Part shown: one piece after another, positions 11,434 to 16,390 of the stretch
Layout of the letters: each line of letters opens with the position of its first letter
Position numbering within the stretch: the first letter of the stretch is position 1
From: a virus
Lineage: Duplodnaviria > Heunggongvirae > Uroviricota > Caudoviricetes
Virus record (IMG/VR): IMGVR_UViG_2711768166_000002
Length of the DNA: 32,271 nt
Direction: 5' to 3' (one strand)
The notes under the pieces: generated by a model
What the model was told of the DNA's origin: nothing
Database searches by the model: none
The model's input: only the letters and a program-made list of their open reading frames with translations
Translations under genes and position numbers: made by a program

Positions 11434-13569
11434 TTAACTCGGCATTAAGTCTGCCGGTGACTGTGGTGGTGACTGGAATTGCTGTTGTTGTGACTCGGCG
11501 ACATCTTTCAGAAGGCGTATTGCCTCCATCACTGCTTTGTCATCGATGTTTCTGGCTTGAGCCAGTTTATAGACAGTGTTTGCCTGACTCTCCATCGCAT
11601 CCTGCTGGGCAGTAAATGCTTTGATTTGAGTTTGAGCAGTTTCGTTAGTTGCTTTTTGCGCTTCTGCCTGCGCTGCTACCATTTGCGCCTGAGCGAGAAC
11701 CATTTCAGGATTTGGCTGGCTTTGTGCTGCCATTTGCGCCTGTTGAACAATCTGCTGCTCTTTCTCATTGCGTGGTTTTGCAATGCCAGATATCAGCAGT
11801 TGGTTTCGGTTGTACTCTTTGAAGTCATCAAGGCCTTCGCCATCGATATTGTCCAGAATAATACCCTGAATTGCCGGGCGCATTGGGTCTGTTGGAAGCA
11901 TAGAGCTAAGGACATTTGTCAGTACAGAAACCGTTGCATCACGTCGTGCTGTGTAGCTTGGTCCAACATCAACCGTCACATCGTATCGACCGACAGAAAG
12001 GTCATTTAACGCAACAACTGCCCCTGTTTGCCTGTCAACAACCTGTGCGCTCAGGACAGCGATATCATCACTTCCATCTTCGTTAACGATGCGCACTTCA
12101 CGCTCTGAACCGTACACTTCACGAGCCATTGACAGCCATACTTCACCAGCGCGTTTAAGACTTTTCGCCATATTGTCCAGATAGATAAACGAAGCCATAT
12201 CTGCTCTGTTCATCAAGTTGTTAACCGTTTCCTGAGCAATATTACTTGGCATCTGCTGCATGGCCTGACTGCCGCCTGTAACCTCCTGAATATCTGCACT
12301 GGTTTGCTGTAGTAATGCAGCCAATGCCTGATTCATAACCGCAGGCTGTGTATATCCTGCCGGGGTAGCTCCAGCGATAATATTGCCAGATTTATCTCTC
12401 ACTTCGCGCAACGGCAAGAACGCTGGGCGTTTCTTGTTGCGAGCCTCCCAGTGCTTCTCAAGTCCACGAATTTGCTCCATGCCAACTATAGGGATCTGAC
12501 CGGGGTCTTGCGCTGCAGTATCAGCCAGCATTGATACCTGAAGGTTATACAAACGCTGTGGATCCATTGCTTTTGCAATATGTCCTTCGACACGCTCAAT
12601 GTCATCAATGAACCAGCGTTTTCCATAAACCGGGATGAGGGGGATATGCTCACCAGGAATACGTCGAGGTTTCTCAAGGAAACCATCACCATCCACTACG
12701 GATACATACACACGACGGCGCTTCACTGAGCGCCTTGCCACTTCCTGAAATCCAGCTATTGCCAGTTCATCTTCAATATCTTCAACCTGATCACTGTCGT
12801 ATGTTGCAATCTCTCCAGTGATTGGATGTCGATAACTGATGACGTCAACAGACTCTTTACGAACTTCGTAATACTTCGCTATGTAAATAACATCTGCATC
12901 AAACCAGTCATATTCCCAACTGGTCATAGACGTTACATCCAGAGAAGCAGGAGGTTTCTTTCCGTATTCAGCCTCATATTTTTCAGGTGACAACGAATAC
13001 ATACAGAACGCCCACAACGCGTCAGATTTGTCGTACTTCTTAGCGTCAGGGTCAAACCACACAGAGCGCGACGGGTCGTATATTGGTTCAATAGCAATAC
13101 GCTGACGATCGTCCATGGGGTCGTATTCATTGACCAGCATCGACGTCAAACGGAAGCAACCGAAACCACCAGTAGCAGCGTCGTCAAATGCATTATCGCA
13201 AGCCTCACCGCCATCAGTTTCTTCGTAGTCAGCACGGAACAGACCATTTAATTTATTGGCTAACTCTTCGCTTGCCTCTCTGTCACCAGGACGAAACTTA
13301 ACGGTGATTCTGTTATTGCGGTATTCTGCAATGATGCGGTTAAGTTCAGTTGCAACCTTATTGATTTCAAACTTAGGATACTTCTCGAACTGCTCATCAA
13401 GCTTAGTTCCAGCCGCCGTTGCTCCTTCCCATTGACCTCCGGGGACACGAGCAAACCTCGTAGCTTCAATGCACTTTTCGCGCACTTCCTGCTGTGGAGA
13501 ATAGGCGCGGTCAAACCTGAGCATGATCCGCTCATGTTTTTTCTCTAATGTCTCTGCCATGTTTACCAA
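11434..13569 (-). CDS. Portal protein
   Basis: 711 aa. Position after TerL; motif PGEHIPLIPVYG resembles the P22 portal AGEHIPIVPVFG. Confidence 0.9.
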   Translation of the reverse strand: MVNMAETLEKKHERIMLRFDRAYSPQQEVREKCIEATRFARVPGGQWEGATAAGTKLDEQFEKYPKFEINKVATELNRIIAEYRNNRITVKFRPGDREASEELANKLNGLFRADYEETDGGEACDNAFDDAATGGFGCFRLTSMLVNEYDPMDDRQRIAIEPIYDPSRSVWFDPDAKKYDKSDALWAFCMYSLSPEKYEAEYGKKPPASLDVTSMTSWEYDWFDADVIYIAKYYEVRKESVDVISYRHPITGEIATYDSDQVEDIEDELAIAGFQEVARRSVKRRRVYVSVVDGDGFLEKPRRIPGEHIPLIPVYGKRWFIDDIERVEGHIAKAMDPQRLYNLQVSMLADTAAQDPGQIPIVGMEQIRGLEKHWEARNKKRPAFLPLREVRDKSGNIIAGATPAGYTQPAVMNQALAALLQQTSADIQEVTGGSQAMQQMPSNIAQETVNNLMNRADMASFIYLDNMAKSLKRAGEVWLSMAREVYGSEREVRIVNEDGSDDIAVLSAQVVDRQTGAVVALNDLSVGRYDVTVDVGPSYTARRDATVSVLTNVLSSMLPTDPMRPAIQGIILDNIDGEGLDDFKEYNRNQLLISGIAKPRNEKEQQIVQQAQMAAQSQPNPEMVLAQAQMVAAQAEAQKATNETAQTQIKAFTAQQDAMESQANTVYKLAQARNIDDKAVMEAIRLLKDVAESQQQQFQSPPQSPADLMPS

Positions 13570-14975
13570 CCGGAGGATGAGGGAACGTATATTTCAGTTT
13601 CTTCGCGGACCAATGCCGGGCAATGCATACACATCATCAGCGCATCAGCCAGGTTAGGAGATGGAATACCGAGCTTCTGCTTCATTTCGACCTTAGTCAT
13701 AAGCTCCAGCTTCCCGTTGTTATTGAATTTGCGCTGAATCTGCGTCAGTTCTGCAAACAGCTTCTCCAGCATCTTCTCGCCTATCGCTTCTTTGTCGAAA
13801 CTCAGCATGTCGTCGGGGTCTGCATACTCACCGTGAACAACCGCCCGATATGTCAGATACAGCCTGTCAGCCAGCGCGTAATAGAATTGCGCTCGCTTAT
13901 TGCGGAATACATCGCCAATAGTGCGAACGTTGTCGCCCTGCACGACTTCATCAGCCCATGCCCCGGCCTGATACGGTGCATCTTCATCGAATGGCGATTC
14001 GCTGCCCTTGAACATCGTGGCGGTGATTTTCTTACCGGAGAACGCTTCCGTTGTCTGTCTGCGTAGCCCGGCACCAACACCATCACCATCCCACAGGTAA
14101 TGGTCAGCGCCGTCTTCAATCGCCAGCGAAGTAGCCCAGTCAGCACCCTCGTTGATGTCCATCAGCAGGCCTTCGGCAATGCGCTTAACTACCGAACCGT
14201 GACGCGATGCGTAACCTTTAGCATCTGGCCCTGTATCTGACGGGTCATGCGCAGAGACAACCGCGCCTTTCGCTTTCCATCCGAGTTTCTTGTGCGCATC
14301 TGTTGCAGCTTCAAGCCATTCACGTTTGATGATTGCCATATCACTTGCGCTTACTGGCTCACCAAGCCAGATGTGACGATACAGTGTCGGGTTTCTGCGT
14401 TTACACTCTTCCATCTCCAGACGGAGAACTTCAGGAAAGTGCGGGTTGTCGGTGTAGTTCACCGTCAGCAGACAAATATCATCGGGAGGGTTTACTACGA
14501 ATCGCTGATAGGTATCGTCGAGGATGTTTTTCGGGTTGAAGCTCACCCATATTTCGGAAAATGGCTTGCGGATGGTTGGTATCAGGATATCCCATGATTC
14601 CTTCGTTACCGCTTCCGCTTCTTCCACCCAGCAGATATCAATGCCTTCGAGCGATTTAATCTTCGTCGGGTTGTTTTTGATGCCGTAGAACATGAATTCA
14701 GCATTCGTTCCAAGATGACGAATCATGGAACGCTGAATTTCAAACTCAGCCGAATACCCTTCCCGCTCAATGGTATCTTCAAGCAACCGGATTACCGAAT
14801 CGCTGATACTGTTTTGCAGTTCACGAGCGCAGAGTATGCGCACAGGCTGCCGACGCGCCGCTTCAACAAGCAGCCTCGCAATTGCCCATGATTTACCGCT
14901 ACCTCGACCGCCTTTGGCAACTTTGTAGCGATGCGCCTCAATGAACGGTTCAAAGATAGGATTAATCGAGGTCAT
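13563..14975 (-). CDS. Terminase large subunit, Sf6 gp2-like
   Basis: 470 aa. N-terminus MTSINPIFEPFIEAHRYKVAKGGRGSGKSWAIARLL with Walker A motif KGGRGSGKS. Confidence 0.95.
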   Translation of the reverse strand: MTSINPIFEPFIEAHRYKVAKGGRGSGKSWAIARLLVEAARRQPVRILCARELQNSISDSVIRLLEDTIEREGYSAEFEIQRSMIRHLGTNAEFMFYGIKNNPTKIKSLEGIDICWVEEAEAVTKESWDILIPTIRKPFSEIWVSFNPKNILDDTYQRFVVNPPDDICLLTVNYTDNPHFPEVLRLEMEECKRRNPTLYRHIWLGEPVSASDMAIIKREWLEAATDAHKKLGWKAKGAVVSAHDPSDTGPDAKGYASRHGSVVKRIAEGLLMDINEGADWATSLAIEDGADHYLWDGDGVGAGLRRQTTEAFSGKKITATMFKGSESPFDEDAPYQAGAWADEVVQGDNVRTIGDVFRNKRAQFYYALADRLYLTYRAVVHGEYADPDDMLSFDKEAIGEKMLEKLFAELTQIQRKFNNNGKLELMTKVEMKQKLGIPSPNLADALMMCMHCPALVREETEIYVPSSSGW

Positions 14976-15412
14976 TTTCCGAATAGAGTGCTCATCGGTG
15001 ATGTTTCAATCTGAATTGCGCCGCCGTCTTTGCCTGTTAGCTCGTGATCAACCTTGTCGCGCCATTTATCCTTCTGTCGGTTCTTAAGCCAGAAAATGGC
15101 AGCGGTTGTATCAGGCGGGTAATACTTCTCAAGCGGAGTTTCGACAATTCTGTTTTCAATAACACGAATATCGATATCTGGAGCCACGAAGCCCATAGCG
15201 CGTTGATAAAGACGATCACTAACTTCTGCATCAGCGACGGCCTTACCCTTTTTTATGGACTCCGAAAACTCAGGATAATCAAGCTTCCACTTGTTAATAG
15301 TTGACTCACTGACTTCGAAGAAATCAGCAAGCTCTGCATCGGTGTAGCCCAGCAAGCACAGTTTGCGTGCCTGTTCGGCATACGCCTCTTGATACTTTGT
15401 TGGGCGCGCCAT
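14972..15412 (-). CDS. Terminase small subunit; Sf6-like C-terminal domain with a different N-terminal DNA-recognition region
   Basis: 146 aa. C-terminus ELTGKDGGAIQIETSPMSTLFGK matches the Sf6 gp1 C-terminus as recalled; the N-terminal about 60 aa differ. Confidence 0.85.
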   Translation of the reverse strand: MARPTKYQEAYAEQARKLCLLGYTDAELADFFEVSESTINKWKLDYPEFSESIKKGKAVADAEVSDRLYQRAMGFVAPDIDIRVIENRIVETPLEKYYPPDTTAAIFWLKNRQKDKWRDKVDHELTGKDGGAIQIETSPMSTLFGK

Positions 15413-15414
15413 GT

Positions 15415-15657
15415 TTATGCTCCGGTAGTGAACAGGTCTAACGCTTCCTTCGATTTACGCACCGCTTCAAATGTGCGGATCGTGATATCCGAATTAGCGC
15501 CGCCTGACTGGAAGTGAATTTTGAATAGTTCAAGCTTCAGCTCGTCAGTTCCAATGAATTGAAATGCTTCTTCTGCGGCTGCGTTCTGGTTCATGACCAG
15601 TTTGTAAATCTCTAACTGGAATTTCTGTTCTTCAGTCATGGGAATAATCTCTGCCAT
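15415..15657 (-). CDS. Hypothetical 80-aa protein immediately upstream of the small terminase gene (cf. P22 orf80 position)
   Basis: ORF track; GGAG RBS; tight packing against the terminase gene. Confidence 0.55.
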   Translation of the reverse strand: MAEIIPMTEEQKFQLEIYKLVMNQNAAAEEAFQFIGTDELKLELFKIHFQSGGANSDITIRTFEAVRKSKEALDLFTTGA

Positions 15658-15904
15658 TGTTGGCTCCGTTTATCCGTTAAAAGGGATATCAGTTAAGTTA
15701 TCCCGTGTAGGGTATAAGCCATTGTCGAGACCACTCATTGAATGGTCTCTGCAATAACCGATGTCTTTCCATCAGTCCGCCACCACAAAGAATCTTTTTT
15801 GCCATAAGGCAGGAGGTTCATCTTTCAGTGGCTGCCAGTGTTATTTCCCCACTTACTGGCTTGGGTTGTTTCGCTGTACTGCCGTTAATTGGTGAGTCCG
15901 GGGA

Positions 15905-16390
15905 TTATTTCAGTTCGTTACCAGGCATTTCTTTTAGCTCTTTCAAATGACAACGATTGAGACTAAACCACTCCCCGTGCGACCTATAGTTGTAATATTT
16001 TTGGTGCAATTTGGTTTCAAGCTCTCTATCGGCCGGAATCTTTGCAATTAGATTTAGCTTCCCACCACTCATGCGAGATATCTCTGAAATTCGTTTATTA
16101 ACCCTGCGACTAAACCCTATTTTTGTTAGCCCACTATCTTCAGCATGCAGAACGTACACATATGATTTTTGCGAAGCACTAGGTGCGACTTTGTTGTAAT
16201 TAATCATGTCAAACATGAAGCCTTGCTTTAGCAAAGTTTCAAAAAAGATAGAATTAACACACCCATTCCTTCTCAGCTCTGCACTTAGCTTGTCAATTTC
16301 CTCTATGATGTCGCCAGACCCCTTTCCACTTATAAGAAAATCTTGGTACATGCGACCAATTCTTGAGGTAATTTCAACAAAGTTATTCAT
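15905..16390 (-). CDS. T5orf172 (GIY-YIG-like, MUG113) domain protein, 161 aa; accessory gene between lysis and packaging modules
   Basis: C-terminal half YVYVLHAEDSGLTKIGFSRRVNKRISEISRMSGGKLNLIAKIPADRELETKLHQKYYNYRSHGEWFSL fits the T5orf172 pattern (YVYVL..G..KIG.....KR.......ELE..LH.KY..R..GEWF). Visibly AT-rich codon usage compared with the flanking phage genes. Confidence 0.7.
   Translation of the reverse strand: MNNFVEITSRIGRMYQDFLISGKGSGDIIEEIDKLSAELRRNGCVNSIFFETLLKQGFMFDMINYNKVAPSASQKSYVYVLHAEDSGLTKIGFSRRVNKRISEISRMSGGKLNLIAKIPADRELETKLHQKYYNYRSHGEWFSLNRCHLKELKEMPGNELK

What the first reader, a model, noticed from the sequence alone, without database searches (positions are those of the whole stretch)
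14972..15412. Chimeric small terminase: Sf6-type C-terminal domain with a different N-terminal DNA-recognition domain
The C-terminal 23 residues match Sf6 gp1 as recalled, but the N-terminal half (MARPTKYQEAYAEQARKLCLLGYTDAELADFFEVSESTINKWK..., helix-turn-helix-like) is unrelated. Because the N-terminal domain of TerS determines pac recognition, this phage probably packages from a different pac site than Sf6 while using the Sf6-type TerL.
Basis: partly seen in the sequence, partly recalled or inferred. Interest (0 to 1): 0.4.

Follow-up and report, generated by a model that had tools for sequence, protein, structure and literature searches.

The report
CUS-3-type small terminase, already known
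The gene is the ordinary small terminase of the known E. coli K1 phage CUS-3, a DNA-recognition subunit whose last ~23 residues are the adaptor matched to the Sf6-type large terminase; this mosaic is common and already published. The gene also carries a strikingly invariant 12-base motif that may be its packaging signal.

Summary
ORF 14972-15412 (minus strand, 146 aa) ends in 22/23 residues of Sf6 gp1 (the last 20 are identical), and the first ~117 residues have no BLAST-level similarity to Sf6.

It is not a new chimera. The protein is 100% identical to the annotated small terminase of phage CUS-3, and CUS-3 itself pairs it with an Sf6-type TerL. The same arrangement covers at least 80% of a junction probe in 374 of 5,426 complete E. 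coli genomes.

Upstream of near-identical Sf6-type TerL genes, three different TerS bodies (CUS-3-type, Sf6-type, Pfam Terminase_2) all carry the same tail. Within the CUS-3-type family the tail changes with the TerL type while the body does not. So the tail is the TerL adaptor, and the body carries DNA recognition and ring assembly.

Bonus: codons 51-54 (GAGTCCATAAAA, 15251-15262) are invariant at synonymous sites across about 80 diverged family members. This is a candidate pac core and is untested.

The parts
14972..15412 (-). terS, small terminase subunit, 146 aa, CUS-3 type
   Evidence: ORF. 100% aa identity to CUS-3 ABQ88402. PHROG 309 'terminase small subunit', E = 2e-68.
15245..15412 (-). 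Codons 1-56: N-terminal helix-turn-helix DNA-binding domain
   Evidence: AF2 helices 9-20, 25-31 and 36-45. Sub-threshold HTH Pfam hits. hhalign to Sf6 DBD residues 7-63, probability 94%.
15059..15244 (-). Codons 57-118: central region, presumed oligomerisation core (long helix, beta-hairpin, helix)
   Evidence: AF2 elements H47-73, E75-85, E88-98, H102-112. Highly conserved across the family up to WRDK. The ring-forming role is inferred from TerS architecture (PMC9611059).
14975..15058 (-). Codons 119-146: C-terminal tail shared with Sf6 gp1. The last 20 aa (14975-15034) are identical. Presumed stalk strand plus TerL-docking peptide.
   Evidence: The same tail sits on three TerS body types upstream of near-identical TerL. 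The tail co-varies with TerL type.
14972..14975 (-). ATGA overlap of the terS stop and the terL start (translational coupling)
   Evidence: Sequence and ORF coordinates.
15420..15423 (-). GGAG ribosome-binding site, 7 nt upstream of the terS ATG
   Evidence: Read directly from the sequence.
13563..14975 (-). terL, large terminase, Sf6 type (PBSX family / Terminase_3)
   Evidence: 470/470 identical to Sf6 gp2. 452/453 identical to CUS-3 TerL, after which the C-terminus differs. PF04466 and TIGR01547.
11434..13569 (-). P22-like portal gene, Sf6/HK620 type
   Evidence: PF16510, E = 6e-179. 98-100% nt identity to Sf6/HK620 but not to CUS-3.
15415..15657 (-). hkbM-like DUF2560 gene immediately upstream of terS; left flank of the terS-body cassette
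   Evidence: PF10834, E = 3e-42. Homologous to HK620 (15417-15894, 96.7%) and to CUS-3.
15251..15262 (-). Invariant 12-mer 5'-GAGTCCATAAAA-3' (codons 51-54, E-S-I-K): nucleotide-level constraint inside terS and candidate pac core
   Evidence: Zero synonymous change in 19 lineages. Codon entropy is about 0 at codons 51-53 in 76 non-redundant genes. These are the top non-Trp third-position information values. There is one copy per locus and it is always in terS.

Best explanation
This is the small terminase (TerS) of a P22-like (Lederbergvirus) headful-packaging prophage, and its protein sequence is identical to the TerS of phage CUS-3. It is built from two evolutionary modules.

1. A body (residues 1 to about 118) belongs to a very large TerS family (PHROG 309). 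[quoted passage not shown]
2. A tail of about 23 residues (ELTGKDGGAIQIETSPMSTLFGK) belongs evolutionarily to the downstream terL module. It presumably forms the stalk strand and the flexible peptide that docks TerS onto the Sf6-type TerL.

The inferred mechanism is as follows. The TerS ring recognises a pac site through its HTH domains. The tail recruits and activates TerL. TerL cuts nearby and starts processive headful packaging.

The DNA-binding domain is only about 23% identical to that of Sf6, and the Sf6 DBD-coding DNA is absent. The phage therefore most likely uses a CUS-3-type pac site, probably inside terS itself, rather than the Sf6 pac.

Shown here: the gene's identity, the module boundaries, the tail-TerL covariation, and the remote homology and fold. 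Inferred: ring formation, TerL docking by the tail, and the location and specificity of pac.
For: - **Identity.** 100% aa identity to CUS-3 TerS, and 98-100% nt identity to many CUS-3 isolates.
- **Context.** The order hkbM, terS, terL, portal, with an ATGA overlap.
- **TerL.** 470/470 identical to Sf6 gp2.
- **DNA breakpoints.** At about 15060 and 15412-15416 relative to HK620/Sf6. CUS-3 is collinear from about 15900 to about 13640.
- **Same tail on three bodies.** Among 78 IMG/VR loci with near-identical TerL, 31 have CUS-3-type, 40 have Sf6-type and 7 have Terminase_2-type TerS. All end in the same tail.
- **Many tails on one body.** Within the body family there are at least 12 different tails.
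- **Body kept while TerL changes.** Bodies that are 87% and 73% identical sit upstream of unrelated TerLs, and an 84% identical body sits upstream of a 64% identical TerL; each has a different tail.
- **Pairwise test.** Among 1,830 pairs, 59 of 65 tail-similar pairs share a TerL type, whereas 85 of 141 pairs with bodies at least 70% identical have different TerL types.
- **Literature.** The TerS C-terminus binds TerL in lambda, P22 and T4, and TerS gene segments have been exchanged horizontally among P22-like phages (PMC4669245, citing Leavitt et al. 2013). The general TerS architecture is reviewed in PMC9611059.
Against: - No experiment or complex model here shows that the tail contacts TerL. 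The covariation is correlative, and the tail lies directly next to terL, so linkage alone could contribute.
- The AF2 model has only moderate confidence (pLDDT 74, pTM 0.45), and the tail is unmodelled (pLDDT < 50).
- The central region shows no detectable sequence homology to the Sf6 oligomerisation domain, and it contains a predicted beta-hairpin that Sf6 lacks.
- The pac specificity of CUS-3-type TerS has not been mapped in any source I could read.
Confidence: 0.85

Rival explanations
1. A new, window-specific recombinant. On this reading, a recent fusion of an Sf6 tail onto a foreign DNA-binding protein created a phage with novel packaging specificity.
For: The protein is visibly bipartite relative to Sf6 gp1.
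Against: - The protein is identical to the CUS-3 TerS deposited in 2007-era records.
- CUS-3 itself has the same terS-terL junction.
- There are 31 IMG/VR loci with this arrangement.
- 374 of 5,426 complete E. coli genomes carry it.
- Relatives carrying the same tail occur in Atlantibacter and, with a few substitutions in the tail, in Yersinia.
Confidence: 0.01
2. It recognises the same pac site as Sf6. On this reading, the two DNA-binding domains are homologous HTH domains and specificity has been retained despite the divergence.
For: The DBDs are remote homologues and share a fold class.
Against: - Identity is only about 23% across the DBD.
- The terS body DNA is less than 50% identical to Sf6, so a pac site embedded in the Sf6 DBD-coding DNA (own knowledge of Leavitt et al. 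2013) cannot be present here.
- The family-specific invariant 12-mer is absent from the Sf6 and HK620 loci.
Confidence: 0.05
3. It is not a terminase subunit but an HTH regulator or homing endonuclease, as some records label it ('HNH homing endonuclease', 'XRE family regulator', 'hypothetical protein').
For: No Pfam or NCBIfam model reaches threshold. Only generic HTH hits appear, and the database labels are inconsistent.
Against: - It matches PHROG 309 'terminase small subunit' at E = 2e-68.
- It always lies directly upstream of, and overlapping, a TerL gene across very different phages.
- It carries the tail of the structurally characterised Sf6 TerS.
- Its top structural match is Sf6 TerS.
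- It has no HNH motif.
Confidence: 0.02
4. (Concerns the invariant 12-mer only.) The nucleotide constraint at codons 51-55 reflects a programmed -1 ribosomal frameshift on A_AAA_AAG rather than a DNA site. In this window the frameshift would yield a 56-residue DBD-only product, because the -1 frame reads GGG TAA.
For: ATA AAA AAG contains the classical E. coli slippery heptamer in the correct phase. 36 of 59 unique family genes have A_AAA_AAG or A_AAA_AAA.
Against: - 23 of 59 genes lack a slippery heptamer but keep TCC-NTA.
- The most constrained bases (GAG TCC) lie upstream of the heptamer.
- The -1 frame outcome is not conserved: the third base of the Gly codon is T, G, C or A in different genes.
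- No conserved Shine-Dalgarno-like stimulator sits at the 10-14 nt spacing.
Confidence: 0.1

Closest known systems
Enterobacteria phage CUS-3 small terminase (ABQ88402, CP000711; E. coli K1 prophage)
   Same: 100% amino-acid identity over all 146 residues. The neighbours are the same (hkbM upstream, Sf6-type terL downstream) and so is the ATGA junction.
   Different: Nothing in terS differs. The surrounding phage does differ: the 3' end of terL and the portal and coat module here are Sf6/HK620-type rather than CUS-3-type.
Shigella phage Sf6 gp1 (PDB 3HEF, 4DYQ; Pfam PF20901 Sf6_terminase)
   Same: - The last 20 residues are identical, and 22 of the last 23.
- The TerL partner is identical.
- It has the same overall plan of HTH, central region and tail.
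- The DBD is remotely homologous (hhalign 94%).

   Different: - There is no match to PF20901.
- The body has BLAST-level identity only in the tail.
- The central region is not detectably homologous and carries a predicted beta-hairpin insertion.
- pac specificity is expected to differ.
Modular TerS exchange in P22-like phages (Leavitt, Gilcrease, Wilson & Casjens 2013, Virology 440:117; Casjens & Thuman-Commike 2011)
   Same: This is the described phenomenon. TerS DNA-recognition segments are exchanged horizontally, while the part that interacts with the motor stays with TerL. The summary is in PMC4669245; the details are from my own knowledge because the papers are not held.
   Different: I could not read the primary paper, so I cannot say whether the CUS-3-type pac site or the 12-mer was examined there.
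Phage P22 gp3 (PDB 3P9A; Pfam PF16677), pac site inside gene 3
   Same: The functional role is the same, and so is the concept of a pac site embedded in the terS coding sequence (BK000583 annotation; PMC9611059).
   Different: - There is no sequence relationship: 13.8 bits against a cut-off of 29.4, and no PDB sequence hit.
- The P22 pac 22-mer is absent from the window even allowing 3 mismatches.
- The TerL type is different.

Membership tests
CUS-3-type TerS (PHROG 309 small terminase family) | Significant full-length match to the family profile or its reference member | tested here: met
   phrog_309, E = 2.1e-68, residues 1-142. 100% identity to CUS-3 TerS. 12,537 cluster representatives at E <= 1e-3.
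CUS-3-type TerS (PHROG 309 small terminase family) | Gene lies immediately upstream of a large terminase gene | tested here: met
   ATGA overlap with terL. The same arrangement is seen in 77 of 84 related loci examined and in annotated phages.
CUS-3-type TerS (PHROG 309 small terminase family) | N-terminal HTH DNA-binding domain followed by an oligomerisation core | tested here: inconclusive
   The AF2 monomer shows a three-helix HTH, a long helix, a hairpin and a helix, at pLDDT 74. Oligomerisation cannot be modelled with these tools.
CUS-3-type TerS (PHROG 309 small terminase family) | Binds a pac site and stimulates TerL | not testable with these tools
   Needs packaging or EMSA experiments.
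Sf6 gp1 family (Pfam PF20901 Sf6_terminase) | Match to PF20901 above the gathering score | tested here: not met
   Sf6 gp1 scores 151.8 bits. The window TerS has no hit at E <= 10.
Sf6 gp1 family (Pfam PF20901 Sf6_terminase) | Sf6-type C-terminal tail paired with an Sf6-type TerL | tested here: met
   20/20 and 22/23 identity. TerL is 470/470 identical.
Sf6 gp1 family (Pfam PF20901 Sf6_terminase) | Homology of the body (DBD plus oligomerisation domain) | tested here: inconclusive
P22 gp3 family (Pfam PF16677 GP3_package) | Match to PF16677 or to the P22 gp3 sequence | tested here: not met
   13.8 bits against a cut-off of 29.4. 3p9a is not among the PDB sequence hits at E <= 10.
Terminase_2 (Pfam PF03592, SPP1/SF6 G1P-like) | Match to PF03592 | tested here: not met
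   The window TerS has no hit. The third TerS type found with the same tail does match, at E = 3.5e-39.
Sf6-like headful (pac) packaging module of P22-like phages | PBSX/Terminase_3 TerL plus a P22-type portal directly downstream | tested here: met
   TIGR01547, E = 1e-122. PF04466 and PF16510. CUS-3 and Sf6 TerL are placed in one headful cluster in PMC5000459.

The most novel reading that the evidence does not exclude
The invariant 5'-GAGTCCATAAAA-3' (with TTT six bases upstream) inside the DBD-coding end of terS may be the core of the pac site, or another TerS-binding site, for the whole PHROG-309 TerS family. On this reading it is conserved from enterobacterial to Acinetobacter and Riemerella phages and travels with the TerS body whichever TerL it serves. 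If so, packaging origins could be predicted from sequence alone for thousands of phages and prophages. It would also be a clean example of a DNA-binding protein gene that carries its own binding site.
Probability: 0.3. Interest if true: 0.55.

Novelty: already known. Interest (0 to 1): 0.2.

Why it matters
The finding as given matters little. It re-identifies the CUS-3 small terminase and a mosaic pattern that the Casjens laboratory described for P22-like phages.

Three practical points follow:
- This very large TerS family (over 12,000 clusters at 50% identity) has no Pfam or NCBIfam model. As a result it is labelled 'hypothetical protein', 'HNH homing endonuclease' or 'XRE regulator' in public records.
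- The ~23-residue tail, not the N-terminal domain, is the portable adaptor that tells which TerL a TerS works with.
- The nucleotide-invariant 12-mer inside the gene is a concrete, cheaply testable candidate for the pac site. This is relevant to predicting generalised or lateral transduction from such prophages in pathogenic E. coli.

Tried and rejected
- **Tail-only protein search.** A search with a 40-residue tail profile, meant to list every TerS body carrying the Sf6 tail, returned only 10 fragments. The question was answered instead by fetching loci around near-identical TerL genes.
- **Primary papers.** Leavitt 2013, Casjens & Thuman-Commike 2011, Zhao 2010/2012, King 2007, Parent 2014 and Casjens & Grose 2016 are not held. 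Statements about them rest on citing papers (PMC4669245, PMC9611059, PMC7672466) or on my own knowledge.
- **First synonymous-site scan.** The scan with 8 lineages was not significant (p = 0.10). It became significant only with 19 or more lineages.
- **Positive controls.** These failed for lack of diversity. The P22 gp3 relatives in IMG/VR are all about 100% identical. The Sf6-type genes are dominated by a recombination boundary.
- **Repeats.** A repeat search in and around terS found only short, chance-level repeats.
- **P22 pac 22-mer.** It is absent from the window.
- **Phage N7 record.** It was checked for packaging-end information. It only copies the Sf6 numbering and so truncates terS.
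- **Frameshift reading of A_AAA_AAG.** It was considered and ranked low.

Full report
**What is at the coordinates**

An ORF runs from 15412 down to 14972 on the minus strand (146 aa, ATG start). A GGAG lies 7 nt upstream of the ATG. The stop codon overlaps the start of the next gene as ATGA.

The flanking genes were identified as follows:
- The next gene downstream (13563-14975) is a large terminase (PF04466, E = 3e-41; TIGR01547, E = 1e-122).
- It is followed by a P22-type portal gene (PF16510, E = 6e-179).
- Upstream lies a DUF2560/hkbM gene.

The window as a whole is a mosaic P22-like (Lederbergvirus) prophage. Its closest overall relatives are phages vB_EcoP-683R2/611R6, HK620, IME10, Sf6 and CUS-3.

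**Checking the observation**

- phmmer against all PDB sequences matches only residues 109-146, to Sf6 gp1 residues 103-140 (E = 5e-11).
- BLASTP gives 26/31 identities over residues 116-146 and nothing else.
- The last 20 residues are identical and the last 23 are 22/23 identical.
- TerL is 470/470 identical to Sf6 gp2.
- At the DNA level, the window is 95-100% identical to Sf6 and HK620 from about 15060 downwards through terL and the portal gene. It is below 50% identical across 15061-15412. Relative to HK620, homology resumes upstream at 15417-15894.

Relative to HK620/Sf6, the replaced cassette is exactly the terS body, about 356 bp.

**What it is**

The gene is 98-100% identical in DNA to the terS of phage CUS-3 in more than 20 CUS-3 isolates. 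The protein is 100% identical to CUS-3 ABQ88402.

CUS-3 itself carries the same terS next to a TerL that is 452/453 identical to the one here, after which the C-terminus differs. CUS-3 is collinear with the window from about 15900 to about 13640. The pairing of a CUS-3-type TerS with an Sf6-type TerL is therefore the natural CUS-3 arrangement, not a new chimera.

A 961-bp probe across hkbM, terS and the 5' end of terL is covered at 80% or more in 374 of 5,426 complete E. coli genomes, and is 100% identical in two poultry isolates.

**How the gene is built**

Three lines of evidence show that the portable unit is the tail.

1. *Same TerL, three bodies, one tail.* I examined 78 IMG/VR loci with a near-identical Sf6-type TerL. 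Of these, 31 have the CUS-3-type TerS (9 identical to the window), 40 have Sf6-type TerS, and 7 have a 175-aa Pfam Terminase_2 TerS. All end in ELxGKDGGAIQIETSPMSTLFGK. The three types converge at the DNA level about 72 nt before the stop.

2. *Same body, many tails.* The CUS-3-type body is strongly conserved up to ...FWLKNRQKxKWRDK and then breaks into at least a dozen unrelated tails.
   - A Salmonella relative has a body 87% identical over residues 1-128 and an unrelated 486-aa TerL.
   - A Pantoea relative has a body 73% identical and an unrelated 552-aa TerL with a different portal type.
   - A Citrobacter relative has a body 84% identical and a TerL only 64% identical.
   - Each of these has its own tail.

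3. *Pairwise test.* I compared 61 unique TerS-TerL pairs, giving 1,830 comparisons.
   - 59 of 65 tail-similar pairs share a TerL type.
   - The six exceptions sit exactly at the 50% cut-off and share only the generic DHELTGKDGGP strand.
   - 85 of 141 pairs with bodies at least 70% identical have different TerL types.

This fits what is established for other terminases. The TerS C-terminus binds TerL in lambda, 21, P22 and T4 (PMC4669245). Deleting the P22 tail abolishes TerL association (PMC9611059). The role of the tail as the TerL adaptor in this phage is inferred, not shown.

**Is the N-terminal part 'unrelated' to Sf6?**

It is not in Pfam Sf6_terminase. Sf6 gp1 scores 151.8 bits, while the window protein has no hit at E <= 10. 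It is not in P22's GP3_package or in Terminase_2 either.

However, several results point to remote homology:
- A profile-profile comparison using body-only alignments (tails removed) aligns residues 1-56 with Sf6 residues 7-63 at 94% probability, E = 1e-7 and 23% identity.
- A family profile weakly hits Sf6 gp1 residues 3-79 (E = 0.16).
- An AlphaFold2 model (pLDDT 74) shows a three-helix HTH (9-20, 25-31, 36-45), a long helix (47-73), a beta-hairpin (75-98), a helix (102-112) and a disordered tail.

The DNA-binding domains are therefore distant homologues. The central region is not detectably related and has a hairpin that Sf6 lacks.

**Mechanism and pac specificity**

By analogy with the general TerS plan (HTH, oligomerisation core, stalk, flexible C-terminus; PMC9611059), the protein should form a ring. 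The ring would bind pac through its HTH domains and recruit TerL through the tail.

The DBD is about 23% identical to that of Sf6, and the Sf6 DBD-coding DNA is missing. Own knowledge of Leavitt et al. 2013 places the Sf6 pac site in that DNA. A different, CUS-3-type pac site is therefore likely. The P22 pac 22-mer is also absent. I found no source that maps the CUS-3 pac site. PMC5000459 only groups CUS-3 with the Sf6-like headful packagers.

**A feature noticed while looking for pac**

- In codon alignments of 19 lineages whose terS bodies are 66-96% identical in DNA, codons 51-54 (GAG TCC ATA AAA, window 15251-15262) show no synonymous change. About 241 pairwise differences were expected. 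Sliding-window permutation gives p <= 0.002.
- In 76 non-redundant genes, every testable codon column has near-maximal synonymous entropy except three consecutive columns: codon 51 (GAG 51/51), codon 52 (TCC 54/54) and codon 53 (ATA 41/43). ATA is a minority Ile codon elsewhere in the same genes.
- In 80 genes below 90% nt identity, the third positions of codons 52, 53 and 49 are the three most informative non-Trp third positions of the whole body.
- When the residue at codon 53 changes to Leu or Val, the codon stays NTA.
- The motif is also present in Acinetobacter and Riemerella phages and partly in Pseudomonas, Lactococcus and Streptococcus phages. It is absent in the Vibrio, Sinorhizobium and Enterococcus phages examined.
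- The exact 12-mer occurs once in the window and once in each of 75 fetched loci. It is always in terS on the sense strand, and never in the Sf6-type, Terminase_2-type, HK620 or P22 loci.
- Of 120 sampled IMG/VR matches to TTTNNNGAGTCCATAAAA, 69 are in-frame in this family.
- No phage paper in the library contains the sequence.

The motif follows the TerS body regardless of TerL type. A site recognised by the TerS DBD, meaning a pac core or possibly an autoregulatory site, is therefore the best reading. A -1 frameshift on A_AAA_AAG is a weaker rival, because 23 of 59 genes lack the heptamer and the most constrained bases lie upstream of it. Positive controls on P22 and Sf6-type genes could not be run for lack of sequence diversity, so this remains a lead.

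**Verdict**

The object is the already known CUS-3 small terminase, showing the already described modular TerS architecture of P22-like phages. Interest in the finding as given is low. The invariant 12-mer is the only part that might be new.

Noticed in passing
window 15251-15262 (minus strand), inside terS: The nucleotide motif GAGTCCATAAAA (codons 51-54) is invariant at synonymous sites across about 80 diverged members of the TerS family, including Acinetobacter and Riemerella phages. There is one copy per locus, always in terS. It is a candidate pac core; a -1 frameshift heptamer A_AAA_AAG overlaps it.
   Followed up: partly
window 14972-15412; public records: This very large TerS family has no Pfam or NCBIfam model. 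RefSeq/PGAP labels it 'hypothetical protein'. Several phage records (phiv205-1, 611R6, 683R2) label it 'HNH homing endonuclease'. JGI labels relatives 'XRE family regulator'.
   Followed up: partly
Proteins P0282-P0400: Sf6-type small terminases (Pfam PF20901) are widely mis-named 'ubiquitin carboxyl-hydrolase' in NCBI records.
   Followed up: no
window 15905-16390 (minus strand): A 161-aa ORF with a MUG113/T5orf172 (GIY-YIG-like) domain sits between the lysis genes and hkbM. CUS-3 and HK620 carry different genes at that position (an unnamed ORF and KilA-N/hkbK-L respectively). It is a moron-like variable slot.
   Followed up: partly
window 13563-13640 and 11434-13569: The last ~17 residues of TerL switch type together with the portal gene: Sf6/HK620-type here and a different type in CUS-3. 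This suggests a second adaptor-like junction, between the TerL C-terminus and the portal.
   Followed up: partly
L167 (phage N7, MH717096, positions 1-423): The N7 record was opened using the Sf6 gene-1 length (423 nt). Its 441-nt CUS-3-type terS therefore loses its first 18 nt and is annotated only as a misc_feature.
   Followed up: yes
L168-L170: MAG contigs assigned to Collinsella and 'Bacillota bacterium' carry a terS 99-100% identical to this E. coli phage gene. This is probably a binning artefact.
   Followed up: no
L004-L083, Sf6-type terS genes: Within Sf6-type terS genes, the DBD-coding first ~50 codons are much more diverged at synonymous sites than the rest of the gene. This is consistent with separate exchange of the DBD segment within that type.
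   Followed up: partly
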